A stretch of DNA of 23,710 nucleotides from a virus (Duplodnaviria; Heunggongvirae; Uroviricota; Caudoviricetes): positions 1 to 23,710 of the IMG/VR virus record IMGVR_UViG_2851949629_000009; one strand, written 5' to 3'. This document shows positions 12,001 through 18,000 of this stretch, one piece after another. Within the stretch, counting starts at the first letter, position 1. Each line of letters opens with the position of its first letter. The position numbers were made by a program.

Positions 12001-15000
12001 CAGCTTATACAGGGAAGTCAGTAGCGGTTTACTCTGCATTTGCCTGACCGCCAGGCGTTCAGACACCGGCAACCCGCGTATTTCGTGCTCAATGGCGTAC
12101 AGTTCGCCGATTAGTTTCAGTGCTTCTTCCGCCGTCGCGCTTTTGGTACTGATATATACATCGTGGATTTTGCGCCGCGCATGAGCCCAGCATCCTGCTT
12201 CCGTCAACGCGCCGCCTTCACGTTCGGCACTGAACAGCCGATCGTAACCTGCGAACGCATCTGCCTGCAGGATACCCCGGAAGGGACGAAGGTGTTGCTC
12301 CGGATGTTTACCCTGATGGTCCGGTGAGTAGGCGAACCAGACCGCCGGAGGTTCTGGCGAACCGGCATTTCGGTCATCCCGGACATACGTCCAGATATAT
12401 CCTGTTTTCGCCTTCTTCCTGCCCGGTGCCAGTACTTTTACTGGTGTGTCATCAGTGTGAACCTTGCGGGTGTTCATCACATAACTGTACAGGGCATCAT
12501 TCACCGGTGTCATTAACTGGCAGCACGCATCAACCCAGTTGGAGAGTAAGGCACGGCTCAGTTCGACACCCTGGCGGGCAAAGATTTCACTCTGACGATA
12601 CAGTGGCAGGTGTTCGCAGTATTTTCCCGTTAACACGCGGGCAAGTAACCCCGGGCCCGCGATACCACGCTCTATCGGACGGGATGGTGCCGGTGCTTCA
12701 ACGATGCAGTCACATTTTGTACAGGCTTTTTTTACCCGTTCTGTGCGGATCACTTTCAGGGCGCTGCTCACCAGCTCCAGTTGTTCTGCGCTGACTTCCC
12801 CCAGATAATCCAGCTCACCGCCACACTCCGGGCAACAGCTTTCTTCAGGCTCCAGGCGGTATATTTCACGGGGGAGATGTGCCGGTAACGGACGACGATG
12901 GCGCGACTGTCGCAACTGGCGGGGAACCAGCGGGTCATCCTCACGCCCACTGTAACGATCGCTTTCCTGCTCGCGTTGTTTCAGCAGGACTTCAGCCTGT
13001 TCAACCTCACTACGCAGTTTTTCAGAACGGGTTCCGAACAGCATCCGGCGCAGTTTTTCTATCTGAGCCCGCAGATGCTCTATTTCTCGCTCATCTTCTT
13101 CGATCTTTTCTTCGGCACGTGCCAGTGCAGAGCGCAGGAAGGCCTCCGTCTCTTCAACCAGACTCAGTTGCTGGTCTTTCTGACGGAGGGCTTCAGCCTG
13201 CTCAGAGAGCAGCCTTTCCAGCTCAGCGATGCGAATGAGGTATTTCTGACCCATGGCCGTTTTTATAATCCGGCCCGGCGTTTTTTACAACATTGTCAGT
13301 GCGTTAAGGCGGGATGTTTTTGGCTGACGCCAGTCCAGCTTATCGAGGAGCATTGCCAGTTGCGAGCGGGTAATGGATATCTTACCGTCATGCACCGCAG
13401 GCCAGATAAACTGACCTTCCTCAAGGCGTTTGGTGAACAGGCACAGACCATCAGCATCAGCCCACAGGATTTTAATCGTGTCTCCCCGTCGGCCACGGAA
13501 GATAAACAGGTGACCGGAGAAGGGGTTATCATCCAGCACATGCTGTATCTGCTCCCCCAGACCGTTGAAGGATTTACGCATATCAGTAACGCCGGCAACG
13601 AGCCAGATACGGGTACCTGATGGGAGTGAAATCATCGTCCCCTCCCGGTCAGCTCACGGATCAACACCGTGAGCAGCTCTGGTGAAGGATTTTCCAGCAT
13701 CATTTTACCGTAATGGAATTCCACATGGCAGGAAGCTGCACAAGCAACTGATAATGCCTCCGGAGCAGGAGCATCTGTAGCACAGCGCGGGGTGTCGATA
13801 AGTTCCACTGGAACCAGAGTCGGAGAGGCCGGAAAAGATTGTGATACTGTAGGGCCTACAATAGTTGGAGGCATTCTACGAGAAATACGTCCTTCTCTTT
13901 GCCAGAGGCGTAGCCATTTAAAAATCAGGTTGTTATCAACGCCATGTTCCCGGGCCAGTTGTGCAACATTGGCATTTGGTTTCGAAGCCAGTTCAACCAT
14001 ATGAAGTTTAAATTCATTAGAAAATATCCGGCGGGTTCCGGAGCGCCAGTCTGTAGGTTTATCCATCAATAGAACTCCGTCTAATTTAGAAGGAGCTCTA
14101 ATTTAGTCTGCAAGGAGCAGGTGTTACAGACGGCATTGGCTTTACGCTTACACCTACCTCACCACCAAAGCCATTTTACATGAGGAAAACATCATGACGG
14201 TAATCGTGTACGGGAAATCAACATTTACAGGAAATGCCAAAACTCGCCGTCATGAGCGGCGCAGAAAGCTGGCTATCGAGCGTGATGCTATATGCAACAT
14301 CATCGATTCGATCTTCGGTACAGACAGTGATGAACCTGTTCAGAAAGAACCGAGAAAGCGTTTAAGCCTTTCTGAAAAAGCAATATCACTCGGCAACATT
14401 CGTAACCAAAATACCGACGAATGCAATGGAAGCATTTGCCTGCCAAACGTAGCCATCTACGTGGCAGGCTATCGGAAATCAAAACAACTGACGGCGAGGT
14501 AATTATGGATATTTCATGTATTGAACAATTACTAATTGAGAAAACGAAAGAAATGCTTGATGTATTGGACAAAAAAAATATCTGAGTTAAAAGATACACC
14601 CGCGACACAACTTATTCTCGAACGTAGTCGAAATAAATTCTTAGAGTTAAGCCCTGACGTTCAAAATATAGCATCTAAACTGCTGGCTACGTTGATTGAG
14701 AGGAATGCATTGTTATCGATGTCATCAGATGAACGAAAAAAACTGACGAACGAAGATGTTGCAACCATCCGCCAGGCATTCGAAATTTTGTTCTCTTAAT
14801 TACTTACTGTTTATTCTGATAATCTCATCAAGAATTTTTTCATAAACAACTGTGCTTGGCTTTCCGTCAATGCCAGGGGCAAGATTACCGGCTCTGATAA
14901 GCTCAACAATAATCTGTTGAGCGGCTTCGTGTGGGTTGGTTTTGGGATTAACAATATCTGTCATAACAAAGCCCTTCTTTTGACTGTGGAAACAACAGTC

Positions 15001-18000
15001 TACCCATTTCCTTTGACTGTGGAAAGTGGAGGAACCACCGAGCCCGATGTGGTTAAAAGACAGGCACAATCTTTACTACCGCAATCCACTATTTAAGGTG
15101 ATATATGGAAGAAGAATTTGAAGAGTTCGAAGAGCATCCTCAGGATGTGATGGAACAATACCAGGACTATCCGTATGACTACGACTATTGATACAAATCA
15201 ATGGTGTGGACAATTCAAACGATGCAATGGATGCAAGCTGCAATCGGAATGCATGGTTAAGCCTGAAGAAATGTTTCCTGTAATGGAAGATGGGAAATAT
15301 GTCGATAAATGGGCAATACGAACGACGGCAATGATTGCCAGAGAACTTGACAAACAGAACAACAAGGCTGCCTGATGGTAGCCTTTATCTTTGGCATAAA
15401 CAACAGAATAAACACTGCACTGTGTATTCATTCCAACGAGTGAATACACGGAGCAATGTCGCTCGTAACTAAACAGGAGCCGACTTGTTCTGATTATTGG
15501 AAATCTTCTTTGCCCTCTAATGTGAGGGCGATTTTTTATCTGTGAGGATATGAACAGATGTCAAACATCAAAAAATACATCATTGATTACGACTGGAAAG
15601 CATCAATAGAAATTGAAATCGACCATGACGTAATGACAGAGGAAAAACTTCACCAGATTAATAATTTCTGGTCAGACTCTGAATACCGACTCAATAAACA
15701 CGGCTCTGTATTAAATGCTGTATTAACCATGCTGGCGCAACATGCTCTGCTTATAGCAATTTCAAGCGACTTAAATGCATATGGTGTTGTGTGTGAGTTC
15801 GACTGGGATGATGGAAATGGTCAGGAAGGATGGCCTCCAATGGATGGTAGCGAAGGAATAAGAATTACCGATATCGATACATCAGGAATATTTGATTCAG
15901 ATGATATGACTATCAAGGCCGCCTGAGTGCGGCTTTACCGCATACCAATAACGCTTCACTCGAGGCGTTTTCGTTATGCAATCAAACAGAAGGAGCATCC
16001 TATGCAACAGTTCGCTATTGCAGGGGCGGCATCGGTTCGCCCTTTCAACCCAATTTTATCGGTGCAGCATTCACGAAAAAATATTTTAACCGGAGCAGAC
16101 TTTAAACAACCAAGAATGAAAAGTTTGCTCGAAAAGCTTTGGGATATTTTGAAACAACAAGGCCGTCCATGAGTTTTACAGATAACTGGTCAGACGAAGA
16201 ATTCATTCGTCAGATGAAAGAATTAATCGGTAACGAAGGAGATATTCATGTCACTTGCAACCACAGTGAAGGAGAGCAAGTTACAGAGACGCATGTACAC
16301 GCAGAAAGCTCTCTGGTATCGCCATAATGGTGACCGCGAAGGAATGCGGGTATGCCTTAATTTGTCCCGAGTCGAAGTATTAAATCAGCGTTATTTCCTT
16401 GGGCCGTGTCCATTCTGAGGTGAATTATGGATTTGAACAAATTCGATGAGCCATTCAGCCCTGAAGATATCGAATGGCGAATACAGCAAAGCGGTAAAAC
16501 ACGCGATGGCAAGGTGTGGGCTATGGTGCTGGCTTATGTCACGAACCGGGCAATCATGAAACGCCTGGACGATGTTTGCGGCAAAGCAGGATGGCGCAAT
16601 GAATACCGCGATATTCCCAACAACGGCGGAGTTGAATGCGGCATATCAATCAGGATTGATTCCGAATGGGTAACCAAATGGGATGCTGCTGAAAACACGC
16701 AGGTAGAAGCCGTCAAAGGTGGTCGTTCCGGTGCAATGAAGCGTGCTGCTGTTCAGTGGGGAATCGGTCGGTATCTGTATAACCTTGAGGAAGGTTTCGC
16801 ACAAACATCTCTCGATAAAAAACATGGGTGGCACAGGGCAAAACTCAAGGATGGAACAGGATTTTACTGGCTCCCTCCATCGCTGCCGGGATGGGCAATC
16901 CCAGCATCAGATAACAAACCATCACCAGAAAATACCAACCAGAAATCTCCATCGGTTGACTGCGAGCAAATCCTGAAAGACTTCAGCGATTATGCGTCAA
17001 CAGAAACTGACAAGAAAAAACTCATCGAGCGTTATCAGCGTGACTGGCAATTAATGGCTGGCAATGAGGATGCGCAGGCTAAATGCGTTCAGGTAATGAA
17101 CATCAGAGTTAACGAGCTAAAACAGGCGGCATAAATGGCAAGCAGAGGCGTAAATAAGGTGATCATTATTGGTCGCCTTGGGCATGATCCAGAAATCAGA
17201 TATTCACCATCAGGAACGGCATTTGCAAACCTTACAGTTGCTACGTCAGAACAATGGCGTGATAAGCAAACTGGAGAGCAAAAGGAGCAGACGGAGTGGC
17301 ACCGCGTGGTAATGAGCGGGAAACTGGCAGAAATTGCCAGCGAATATCTGCGAAAAGGCTCAGAGGTTTATCTTGAAGGCAAATTACGGACAAGAAAATG
17401 GCAGGATCAAAGCGGACAGGATAGGTTCACTACCGAAGTCATCGTGGGCGTTGGTGGAACCATGCAAATGCTTGGTGGCAAGCAAGGAGGCAATGAACAG
17501 TCTTCACCTCAGCGAAATAACGGTCAGCAACAAAGACAGCAATCTCAGCAGCAGGGGAATCACAGCGAACCACCTATGGATTTTGACGACGATATACCCT
17601 TTGCACCAGTAACTCTCCCCTTCCCTCGTCACGCTATTCACGCAATTTAAGGACTTACATGAATCACTTAATGGTTGACCTTGAAACAATGGGCAACGGG
17701 CCATATGCGCCAGTTATTTCTATTGGGGCGGTATTCTTTGACCCGAATACCGGAGAAACAGGAGAAGAGTTCTCGGTAAATATCTCGCTTGAGTCATCAA
17801 TGCGATATCGGGCGCGTCCTGACGCTTCAACAATTTTATGGTGGATGGAACAGAGTGAAGAAGCCAGAAAATCGCTAACCAGCAACACTCAAGAGCTTTC
17901 AACGGCTCTTTCATGGTTATCTGAATTCATCATAAAGAACGCCAACCACAAACTCGTTCAGGTTTGGGGGAATGGAGCATCATTTGACTGCGTTATTCTC

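What the first reader, a model, noticed from the sequence alone, without database searches (positions are those of the whole stretch)
14979..15025. Two exact 14-bp direct repeats (TTTGACTGTGGAAA) upstream of a small antisense gene
The repeats are 33 bp apart (roughly three helical turns), each contains a TTGACT hexamer, and they lie 15-60 bp upstream of a minus-strand 54-aa ORF (14800-14964) that is antisense to the pL operon. This looks like a pair of binding sites for a regulator, or tandem promoter elements, controlling an antisense or lysogeny-expressed gene.
Basis: seen in the sequence. Interest (0 to 1): 0.45.

Follow-up and report, generated by a model that had tools for sequence, protein, structure and literature searches.

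The report
Repeats in a sas-like antisense cassette
The two 14-base repeats are real and belong to a portable prophage control module, a variant of the phage P22 sieB promoter with the sas antisense RNA on the opposite strand, which here controls a small gene of unknown function.

Summary
In detail: TTTGACTGTGGAAA occurs exactly twice, 33 bp apart (17/18 identity if extended), upstream of the minus-strand 54-aa ORF.

The region is a sequence variant of the P22/lambda sieB control cassette. On the minus strand it aligns in register with the P22 sieB promoter and annotated RNA start. The distal copy covers the -35 region, a -10 (TAGACT) lies between the copies, and the proximal copy is the first ~14 nt of the cargo mRNA. 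On the plus strand the same DNA matches the P22 sas antisense RNA, which small-RNA sequencing detected and which contains both P22 repeats.

Across about 250 prophage loci from Enterobacterales I found at least 7 repeat sequence types. In each type the two copies co-vary (12.0/14 identity within a cassette, 4.7/14 between types). The distal copy sits in a hairpin with compensatory changes and a G·U bias toward the pL-direction RNA. A conserved pseudoknot follows it. Cargo genes vary widely.

Best reading, partly inferred: the distal copy gives the antisense RNA a second exposed site complementary to the mRNA 5' end. The TTGACT hexamers are not promoter elements for the antisense gene, and a protein operator is less likely. 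This is a new variant of a known system.

The parts
14979..14992 (.). Proximal repeat copy (extended 14975-14992). On the minus strand, TTTCCACAGTCAAA is the predicted first ~14 nt of the cargo mRNA, directly 5' of the Shine-Dalgarno sequence. On the plus strand it forms the top of stem-loop I of the sas-like RNA.
   Evidence: Register with the annotated P22 sieB RNA start. Predicted unpaired probability 0.95 in the mRNA.
15012..15025 (.). Distal repeat copy (extended 15008-15025). On the minus strand it covers the -35 region. On the plus strand it supplies the loop and 3' arm of stem-loop II (H1) of the sas-like RNA.
15020..15025 (-). Predicted -35 hexamer TTTCCA, 4/6 to consensus, 17 bp upstream of the -10
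   Evidence: Read from the sequence and from alignment with the annotated P22 sieB promoter. Below the threshold of the promoter scan, as is the mapped P22 promoter itself.
14997..15002 (-). Predicted -10 hexamer TAGACT, in register with TAAACT of P22 and lambda and with TATATT or TATAAT of other cassette types
14988..14993 (-). Predicted transcription start zone of the cargo mRNA, about 7 nt after the -10
   Evidence: Homology with the P22 'sieB RNA start site' feature. Inferred, not measured.
14962..14978 (-). Shine-Dalgarno sequence AAGAAGGG (14978-14971) and ATG start codon (14964-14962) of the cargo gene
14800..14964 (-). Cargo ORF, 54 aa, function unknown. It occupies the slot held by sieB in lambda and P22.
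   Evidence: No Pfam or PADLOC hit, PHROG families of unknown function only. Only 3 protein clusters found, all named hypothetical.
14960..15082 (+). Predicted sas-like antisense RNA. The extent is taken from the 127-nt P22 sas read cluster. The 3' ~52 nt are nearly identical to P22 sas, and the 5' part differs in sequence but has the same layout.
14982..15000 (+). Top of stem-loop I: GACUGU / loop GGAAACA / ACAGUC
   Evidence: RNAfold prediction only. Other type-B subtypes pair different bases here.
15004..15029 (+). Stem-loop II (H1): CCAUUUCC / loop UUUGACUGU / GGAAAGUGG
   Evidence: Compensatory variants CAG..CUG in other type-B cassettes. The homologous hairpin of the other types is 93% paired, with 8 of 11 pairs changed on both sides.
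15033..15065 (+). Conserved H-type pseudoknot: S1 AACCAC/GUGGUU, L1 CGA, S2 GCCCG/CAGGC (one C.A mismatch in this window), L2 AU, L3 AAAAGA

Best explanation
The two 14-mers are the paired 'address' repeats of a sieB-promoter / sas-antisense cassette, a compact two-strand control module found in lambdoid prophages between the N side of the pL operon and ral.

Minus strand. The cassette is a weak sigma-70-type promoter. It should be active in the lysogen by analogy with sieB; that activity was not tested. The -35 (TTTCCA) lies inside the distal copy and the -10 (TAGACT) lies between the copies. Transcription starts at or next to the first base of the proximal copy. The proximal copy is therefore the unstructured 5' end of the mRNA for the 54-aa cargo gene, immediately before its ribosome-binding site.

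Plus strand (pL direction). The same DNA encodes a sas-like antisense RNA with three parts. A 5' part is complementary to the cargo start codon, ribosome-binding site and 5' end, and includes the proximal copy. Stem-loop II carries the distal copy in its loop and one arm. A 3' pseudoknot follows.

Inferred step. Because the distal copy repeats the complement of the mRNA 5' end in an exposed loop, it acts as a second, structured recognition site for the cargo mRNA, in the manner of kissing-loop antisense RNAs. This would help the phage shut off translation of its lysogeny-expressed gene when pL transcription begins. It would explain why the hairpin arm, the distal copy and the proximal copy all co-vary.

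What is shown and what is inferred. Shown: the homology, the architecture, the co-variation and the RNA-type hairpin. Shown in P22 only: the transcription start and the existence of the antisense RNA. Inferred: expression in this prophage and the recognition role of the distal copy.
For: 1. Position and orientation match lambda and P22 sieB.
2. An alignment in sieB orientation places the window's TAGACT on the P22 -10. It places the proximal repeat on the feature annotated 'sieB RNA start site' in NC_002371.
3. P22 and lambda carry their own repeat, ACCCCTACAG, at the same two positions, 34 bp apart.
4. Loci gathered with the conserved block and with the paired motif show at least 7 repeat types whose two copies co-vary. 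Identity is 12.0/14 within a cassette against 4.7/14 between types, and 0 of 10,000 permutations reach that value.
5. In type B the 12-nt core is constant in both copies, from E. coli to Proteus, Providencia, Pantoea, Mixta and a Hafnia phage. The spacer between the copies takes 37 forms.
6. PMC13397905, Table 2, reports a 127-nt P22 sas RNA. Its sequence equals the pL strand of exactly this cassette and contains both repeats and the conserved block.
7. The window is nearly identical to that RNA over the 3' ~52 nt.
8. The distal-copy hairpin is 93% paired, 8 of 11 pairs change on both sides, and 0 of 500 shuffles match this.
9. The hairpin has 31 G.U cells in the pL orientation against 8 in the other. 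It is more stable as pL-strand RNA for types B to E.
10. The pseudoknot topology occurs in 92 of 113 unique blocks against 15 of 2,260 shuffles. Stem 2 is 95% paired with double-sided changes.
11. As the mRNA 5' end, the proximal copy is predicted unpaired: 0.71 against 0.48 for the rest of the mRNA, and 0.95 in the window.
12. Neither the cargo family nor any neighbouring protein family tracks the repeat type.
Against: 1. There are no expression data for this prophage or for any type-B cassette. The transcription start and the antisense RNA are extrapolated from P22.
2. The cis-encoded antisense RNA is already fully complementary to the mRNA 5' end through the proximal copy, so the need for a second site is not obvious.
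3. In lambda the repeat is only 10 nt. One-base mismatches between the copies are common (for example L029, n=6). One natural hybrid exists (L055), as do single-copy forms (L008, Arsenophonus).
4. The register of the repeat relative to the hairpin differs between type B and the other types.
5. In predicted folds the two copies tend to expose complementary halves of the repeat, but only loosely: the correlation is negative in 72% of cassettes, mean -0.22.
6. No sigma-70 consensus promoter for the + strand RNA was found, so its origin, own promoter or processing of the pL transcript, is unknown.
7. An IS66-family element sits about 40 bp upstream of N and may cut this cassette off from pL transcription.
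Confidence: 0.45

Rival explanations
1. The repeats are DNA binding sites (operators) for a regulatory protein, phage- or host-encoded. It binds at -35 and at +1, three helical turns apart, and represses or activates the antisense gene.
For: Direct repeats 33-34 bp apart straddle the -10. The distal copy lies in a 26-bp imperfect palindrome centred near -31. In type B each copy matches the DnaA box TTATNCACA at 8 of 9 positions (read from the sequence).
Against: At least 7 repeat types occur in overlapping hosts, so a single host factor would not fit them all. The same type B sits beside three different CI-type repressors, and a P22-type N goes with type B here but type A in P22. No ORF family within +-6 kb tracks the repeat type. 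The palindrome arms vary freely while staying complementary. Their mismatches are mostly G.U on the pL strand, 31 against 8, which fits RNA pairing better than protein recognition. The lambda O iteron idea fails: P22 iterons differ although both phages are type A, and this window has lambda-type iterons with type B.
Confidence: 0.15
2. The identity of the two copies serves an intramolecular RNA switch. The 3' arm of stem-loop II can pair with either the distal or the proximal copy in the pL-direction RNA. Pairing of the antisense RNA with the cargo mRNA would then change the fold of the downstream RNA, affecting its stability, processing or the expression of ral-side genes.
For: There is three-way co-variation of the hairpin arm, the distal copy and the proximal copy. 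In types B, C and P22 the repeat extends to 16-18 nt, so the arm could pair nearly as well with the proximal copy region. The hairpin directly abuts a conserved pseudoknot.
Against: In lambda only 4-5 nt of the arm could pair with the proximal copy. No alternative fold was tested against co-variation. There is no known precedent at this locus.
Confidence: 0.15
3. The repeats have no function of their own. They are a relic of a tandem duplication of the 5' UTR region. They are kept alike by templated mutation (quasi-palindrome or slipped-strand correction), or by separate constraints on the -35 region and on the 5' UTR.
For: Similarity extends beyond the core. The distal copy plus GGAAAT resembles the proximal copy plus the Shine-Dalgarno sequence AGAAGG. 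A natural 33-bp deletion between the copies exists in L008. Mismatched and hybrid cassettes survive.
Against: Both copies stay identical across families of Enterobacterales while the spacer diverges into 37 forms. Several independent paired changes occur, such as AACAAC/AACGAC, ATGCAA/ACATAA, TACAG/TACAA and a new Xenorhabdus type. The non-repeat part of the distal unit is orthologous across types, so repeated fresh duplications are excluded.
Confidence: 0.12
4. The TTGACT hexamers are -35 elements of one or two + strand promoters (tandem promoter elements).
For: TTGACT matches the -35 consensus at 5 of 6 positions and occurs twice.
Against: The hexamers 17 bp downstream are CCCATT and CACCGA, and the promoter scan finds nothing on either strand. 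TTGACT is absent from all other repeat types of the homologous cassette. The + strand is the wrong strand for the antisense gene.
Confidence: 0.03

Closest known systems
Phage P22 sieB promoter (PsieB) and sas antisense RNA. Ranade & Poteete 1993, J Bacteriol 175:4712 and Genes Dev 7:1498 (papers not held in the library). Features are annotated in NC_002371/BK000583, and the RNA sequence is given in PMC13397905.
   Same: Same genomic slot and orientation. The -10 is in register. Two direct repeats flank the -10, 33-34 bp apart. The distal copy lies in a hairpin that abuts the same conserved block. The 3' ~52 nt are nearly identical to sas.
   Different: The repeat sequence differs: TTTCCACAGTCAAA against ACCCCTACAG. 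The loop has 9 nt instead of GGGG, and the repeat sits in a different register within the hairpin. The cargo is a 54-aa protein of unknown function, not SieB with its in-frame Esc, so the SieB-to-Esc translational switch cannot apply.
Phage lambda sieB upstream region (34,379-34,481)
   Same: Homology with the window begins at lambda 34,430, immediately beside the distal copy. The conserved block and the downstream orf28, ral and ea10 genes are about 98% identical.
   Different: Lambda has the type-A repeat and a lambda-type sieB. No RNA or promoter is annotated there in the lambda records examined.
Kissing-loop cis-antisense RNAs, such as P22 sar/ant, plasmid R1 CopA/CopT, ColE1 RNA I/II and hok/sok (from my own knowledge)
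   Same: A small structured antisense RNA overlaps the 5' end and ribosome-binding site of its target. The complementary sequence is displayed in hairpin loops. Sequence types could define specificity groups.
   Different: Here the second recognition sequence lies outside the region of cis overlap, as a direct DNA repeat that also forms the -35 region of the target's promoter. I know of no described case with that layout.
Prophage anti-sRNAs AgvB and AsxR of enterohaemorrhagic E. coli (Tree et al. 2014, PMC4104026)
   Same: Short prophage RNAs at a conserved slot where extra genes ('morons') insert, with a conserved 3' domain and a variable 5' targeting part.
   Different: Those lie downstream of PR', are 51-60 nt long and act in trans on core-genome sRNAs. 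They share no sequence or structure with this cassette.

Membership tests
P22-type PsieB / sas cassette | Lies between the N side of the pL operon and ral, and drives a gene antisense to pL | tested here: met
   N-like gene 14194-14502 (+), cargo 14800-14964 (-), ral 15175-15375 (+). Same order as P22 and lambda.
P22-type PsieB / sas cassette | Sequence homology to the 3' domain of sas RNA (the conserved block) | tested here: met
   Window 15031-15082 differs from P22 sas at 2 positions.
P22-type PsieB / sas cassette | A -10 and RNA start in register with the mapped P22 sieB promoter | tested here: met
   By alignment only: TAGACT aligns with TAAACT, and the proximal repeat aligns with the annotated start. 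No measurement exists for this phage.
P22-type PsieB / sas cassette | Two direct repeats 33-35 bp apart flanking the -10, with the distal copy in a hairpin next to the block | tested here: met
P22-type PsieB / sas cassette | The target gene is sieB, with an internal in-frame Esc start that escapes the antisense RNA | tested here: not met
   The cargo has 54 aa and no SieB domain (PF14163), which the SieB-type cargos from P22 (L010) and L028 do match.
P22-type PsieB / sas cassette | The antisense RNA is made and inhibits translation of the target | not testable with these tools
   Reported for P22 only.
Sigma-70 consensus promoter | At least 9 of 12 matches to TTGACA-N16-18-TATAAT | tested here: not met
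   The scan finds none in 14100-15600. My candidate scores 8 of 12. The same scan also misses the annotated P22 sieB promoter, so this failure carries little weight.
LexA (SOS) box | CTGT-N8-ACAG | tested here: not met
   GACTGTGGAAACAACAGTC has CTGT-N7-ACAG. The palindrome is absent from the other type-B subtypes.
DnaA box | TTATNCACA, conserved wherever the element functions | tested here: inconclusive
   8 of 9 matches in both type-B copies on the minus strand. Types A, C, D, E and F at the same positions do not match.
Lambda O-protein iterons | Similarity to the ori iterons of the resident replicon | tested here: not met
   The window has lambda-type iterons at 8498-8581 that are unlike the repeat. 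P22 iterons differ from lambda's although both phages share repeat type A.
Any Rfam family | A match to a curated covariance model | tested here: not met
   Nothing in the window region at E up to 10, and nothing at the cassette in 12 related loci.

The most novel reading that the evidence does not exclude
The repeats form a type-specific address code. Stem-loop II of the sas-like RNA and the 5' end of the cargo mRNA would be matched recognition pairs, diversified into at least 7 specificity types. A phage could then silence its own lysogeny-expressed gene, often an exclusion gene, on entering lytic growth. A superinfecting phage of the same type could silence a resident prophage's gene whatever that gene encodes. 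That would make an incompatibility-group-like arms race built into a portable promoter/antisense cassette with a 3' pseudoknot.
Probability: 0.25. Interest if true: 0.75.

Novelty: new variant of a known kind. Interest (0 to 1): 0.55.

Why it matters
The P22 sas/sieB pair has been treated as a one-off curiosity. The evidence here suggests it is one member of a widespread module that can be swapped between prophages of Enterobacterales. The module has a lysogenic promoter on one strand and a structured antisense RNA (hairpin plus pseudoknot) on the other. It is attached to many different small cargo genes, including SieB and many proteins of unknown function.

The module is absent from Rfam, and none of the phage records I examined annotates the RNA. 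If the co-varying repeats are specificity determinants, they give a directly testable rule for which phage can switch off which prophage-expressed gene. They would also flag the cargo genes as candidates for superinfection exclusion or defence functions.

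Tried and rejected
1. TTGACT as a -35 element: no -10 follows, it is on the wrong strand, and it is absent from other types.
2. LexA box: the spacing is N7 rather than N8, and the palindrome is not conserved.
3. DnaA boxes: 8 of 9 matches in type B only.
4. Lambda O iterons: lambda iteron 2 resembles the type-A distal copy at 12 of 18 positions. However, P22 has quite different iterons with the same repeat type, and this window has lambda-type iterons with type B.
5. CI or Cro operators: the same repeat type sits beside three different repressors.
6. A linked type-specific regulator: clustering all ORFs within +-6 kb of 130 loci gave no family with both high coverage and high specificity for a type.
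7. Cargo-determined repeats: one ~160-aa cargo family occurs with types A, C, D and E, and type B drives 14 cargo clusters.
8. Intrinsic terminators: neither the hairpin nor the block is followed by a run of T on either strand.
9. IHF and CRP consensus sequences, checked by eye: no fit.
10. Rfam: no family.
11. EHEC anti-sRNAs: they lie at a different locus.
12. A third copy of the repeat elsewhere, such as a trans RNA gene: none in the window. Lambda has one extra exact 10-mer inside gene C, which is compatible with chance.
13. The two original Ranade & Poteete papers could not be read. I therefore cannot say whether they noted the repeats.
14. A stem-loop enclosing the proximal copy (H0): support is uneven across types, with z from 0 to -2.7, so I do not rely on it.

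Full report
OBSERVATION. The 14-mer TTTGACTGTGGAAA is present exactly at 14979-14992 and 15012-15025 on the + strand, and nowhere else in the window with up to two mismatches. The pair extends to 18 nt with one mismatch, 14975-14992 and 15008-15025, 33 bp start to start. By my arithmetic, about 0.009 exact 14-mer pairs within 100 bp are expected in 23.7 kb. The minus-strand ORF 14800-14964 (54 aa) begins 15 bp from the proximal copy.

CONTEXT. The window is a lambdoid prophage with the pL-type operon on the + strand.
- The N gene lies at 14194-14502. It matches Pfam N_peptide at E 3e-38 and is 65% identical to P22 gp24.
- A second ORF lies at 14536-14799, followed by the antisense 54-aa ORF.
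- After that come orf28, ral and ea10, about 98% identical to lambda.
- Homology with lambda starts at window 15032, equal to lambda 34,430, immediately beside the distal copy.
- In lambda the next gene is sieB (34482-35036), also antisense to pL. The 54-aa ORF therefore sits in the sieB slot.
- An intact relative without the IS element, E. coli MS 16-3, has the same arrangement.

THE MINUS STRAND IS A VARIANT OF THE sieB PROMOTER. The P22 reference record annotates a sieB promoter at 29690-29720 and a 'sieB RNA start site' at 29727. Aligned in sieB orientation, the P22 and lambda -10 (TAAACT) falls on the window's TAGACT (15002-14997) and on TATATT in a Salmonella P22-like phage.
- P22 and lambda have their own direct repeat, ACCCCTACAG, at the same two positions, 34 bp apart.
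- The distal copy covers the -35 region, and the proximal copy begins at the annotated start.
- By homology the window has its -35 TTTCCA at 15025-15020, inside the distal copy. Its start lies near 14990, so the proximal copy is the first ~14 nt of the mRNA. The Shine-Dalgarno sequence AAGAAGGG and the ATG at 14964 follow.
- The consensus promoter scan finds nothing here. It also misses the annotated P22 promoter, so that negative result carries little weight.

COMPARATIVE ANATOMY. Scans of viral and genome collections used two probes: the conserved block next to the distal copy, and the paired type-B motif. They returned about 250 cassette loci. All share one layout: conserved block, distal repeat, a GAAAT-like stretch, the -10, 5-8 nt, the proximal repeat 33-35 bp after the distal one, a Shine-Dalgarno sequence, and the start codon of a variable gene.

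At least seven repeat types exist:
- A: ACCCCTACAG (lambda, P22)
- A': ACCCCTACAA (Photorhabdus)
- B: TT(T)CCACAGTCAA(A) (this window)
- C: TCCCCAACAAC, with the variant TCCCCAACGA
- D: CCCCAATGCAA, with the variant CCCCAACATAA
- E: CCCCCACAA
- F: CTCCCCAGCAA (Xenorhabdus)

Within a cassette the two copies agree at 12.0 of 14 positions on average. Copies from different types agree at 4.7 of 14, and none of 10,000 permutations reaches the observed value. In type B the 12-nt core is constant in both copies in E. coli, Salmonella phages, a Hafnia phage, Proteus, Providencia, Pantoea and Mixta. The spacer between the copies takes 37 forms.

Exceptions exist. There are one-base mismatches between copies, one hybrid with a type-A distal and type-E proximal copy (L055), a 33-bp deletion between the copies (L008), and a variant with a 5' hairpin in place of the proximal copy.

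The cargo varies widely. It includes P22-type and lambda-type SieB, a ~160-aa family seen with types A, C, D and E, and many small proteins. Type B alone drives 14 cargo clusters. No ORF family within +-6 kb tracks the repeat type, and identical type-B cassettes sit beside three different repressor genes.

THE PLUS STRAND ENCODES A sas-LIKE RNA. Table 2 of PMC13397905 (Noncoding RNA 2026;12:21) lists the known P22 antisense RNA sas as a 127-nt read cluster from infected cells.
- Its sequence is the pL strand of exactly this cassette. It starts opposite the sieB start codon and contains both P22 repeats. It ends at the far edge of the conserved block.
- sas is reported to switch translation of sieB mRNA from SieB to Esc. 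A review lists its length as 105 nt.
- The window's + strand 14960-15082 has the same layout, and its last ~52 nt differ from P22 sas at two positions.
- Rfam has no family for this RNA. None of the phage records listed for this region annotates the RNA.

RNA STRUCTURE. The distal copy lies in a hairpin that abuts the block.
- For the non-B types, in pL orientation, the hairpin is 93% paired. Eight of 11 pairs change on both sides, and 0 of 500 shuffles match.
- G.U pairs number 31 in the pL orientation against 8 in the other orientation.
- Predicted stability for types B to E is -8 to -13 kcal/mol in pL orientation (z -1.7 to -3.0). In the other orientation it is -1 to -5.5 kcal/mol (z near 0).
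- In the window the hairpin is CCAUUUCC / UUUGACUGU / GGAAAGUGG at 15004-15029. Other type-B cassettes carry compensatory CAG/CUG in the lower stem.
- The conserved block fits an H-type pseudoknot: S1 AACCAC/GUGGUU, L1 CGA, S2 GCCUG/CAGGC, L2 AU, and an A-rich L3. Stem 2 is 95% paired with three pairs changed on both sides.
- The whole pseudoknot topology is found in 92 of 113 unique blocks against 15 of 2,260 shuffles. More than ten different stem sequences occur.

The hairpin arm, the distal copy and the proximal copy therefore co-vary three ways. One example is TGTT/AACAAC changing to TGTC/AACGAC, with G also in the proximal copy.

MECHANISM. What is shown: the repeats are conserved, co-varying parts of a two-strand cassette. 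One strand is homologous to a mapped promoter. The other is homologous to an RNA detected by sequencing.

What is inferred: the distal copy repeats, in an exposed loop plus one arm of stem-loop II, the complement of the cargo mRNA's 5' end. That end is predicted unstructured, with unpaired probability 0.71 against 0.48 overall and 0.95 in the window. I therefore think the distal copy most likely acts as a second recognition site for the mRNA. This explains the co-variation without invoking a type-specific protein. In predicted folds the two copies often expose complementary halves of the repeat, but this support is weak (negative correlation in 72% of cassettes).

The main weakness is that the cis-antisense overlap already supplies complementarity, so the need for a second site is unproven. 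An intramolecular switch, a DNA-binding protein and non-functional concerted evolution all remain possible. My confidence that this is a PsieB/sas-type cassette is high, about 0.85. My confidence in the recognition role of the distal copy is moderate. The overall score of 0.45 reflects the full mechanistic statement.

CAVEAT FOR THIS PROPHAGE. An IS66-family element ends at 14152, about 40 bp before the N start codon. It separates N and everything downstream from the pL region. Transcription of the cassette in the pL direction may therefore be impaired here.

NOVELTY. The sieB promoter and sas RNA are known in P22. I did not find three points in the searchable literature or in the annotation I examined:
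- the generality of the cassette with non-sieB cargo;
- its sequence types with co-varying repeats;
- the hairpin-plus-pseudoknot structure.

I could not read the two original 1993 papers. I rate this as a new variant of a known kind.

Noticed in passing
window 282-2821 and 11606-14152: Two IS66-family elements in inverted orientation, each with a 537-aa transposase. They are 90% identical over 2128 nt, with terminal inverted repeats at 282-309 and 14125-14152. The second ends about 40 bp upstream of the N start codon, separating N and the downstream pL genes from the immunity region.
   Followed up: partly
window 8498-8581: Four lambda-type replication-origin iterons (CCCTCGTTTTGAGGGAT and variants) lie inside a 299-aa O-like ORF (8030-8929, minus strand). 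The prophage thus combines a lambda-type replicon, a P22-type N and a type-B cassette.
   Followed up: partly
loci L138-L140, L142, L145-L149, L151, L152, L154, L156-L162, L164, L167: Genome assemblies of unrelated bacteria contain contigs with the lambda-type (type-A) cassette, identical or nearly so at the region examined. The hosts include Nocardioides, Paenibacillus, Bradyrhizobium, Vibrio and Pseudomonas. Many contigs are tiny and at about 1x coverage, and some are about 48.4-48.5 kb long. This looks like lambda control-DNA contamination.
   Followed up: no
L008 (E. coli 203740) 2430-2610: This cassette has a single repeat copy. The 33 bp between the copies, including the -10, are deleted, as expected from recombination or slippage between the direct repeats. 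An Arsenophonus locus (L135) also lacks the promoter unit.
   Followed up: partly
loci L022, L027, L051, L088, L119: A type-A cassette variant has a hairpin at the predicted RNA 5' end (ACCCCC UUAUUUUGUCA GGGGG) in place of the proximal repeat. Its downstream cargo was not examined.
   Followed up: no
loci L019, L024, L034 and others (cargo cluster 1): The commonest non-SieB cargo is a ~150-170-aa protein with C-terminal CxxC...CxxC motifs and only a weak, sub-threshold SLATT-like hit. It occurs with repeat types A, C, D and E.
   Followed up: partly
L010 (P22) 4807-4835, + strand: The promoter scan finds ATGACA-N17-TATGCT inside sieB, ending at the esc start codon. It is the only consensus-like promoter in the region. 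Its relation to Esc expression is unknown.
   Followed up: no
phage record MW057783.1 (hit H8): A record named Campylobacter phage CJLB-4 (48,361 bp) matches the query as well as the lambda records do across ral-ea10. This may be a mislabelled or contaminated entry.
   Followed up: no
window 15045: This window (n=2 loci) has GCCCG where other cassettes have GCCTG in pseudoknot stem 2. The change creates a C.A mismatch with A15062.
   Followed up: no
window 14536-14799 (+): The ORF between N and the cargo gene has only a weak PHROG hit to an HTH DNA-binding protein family (E 0.0045). RefSeq annotates a longer 97-aa version in E. coli MS 16-3.
   Followed up: no
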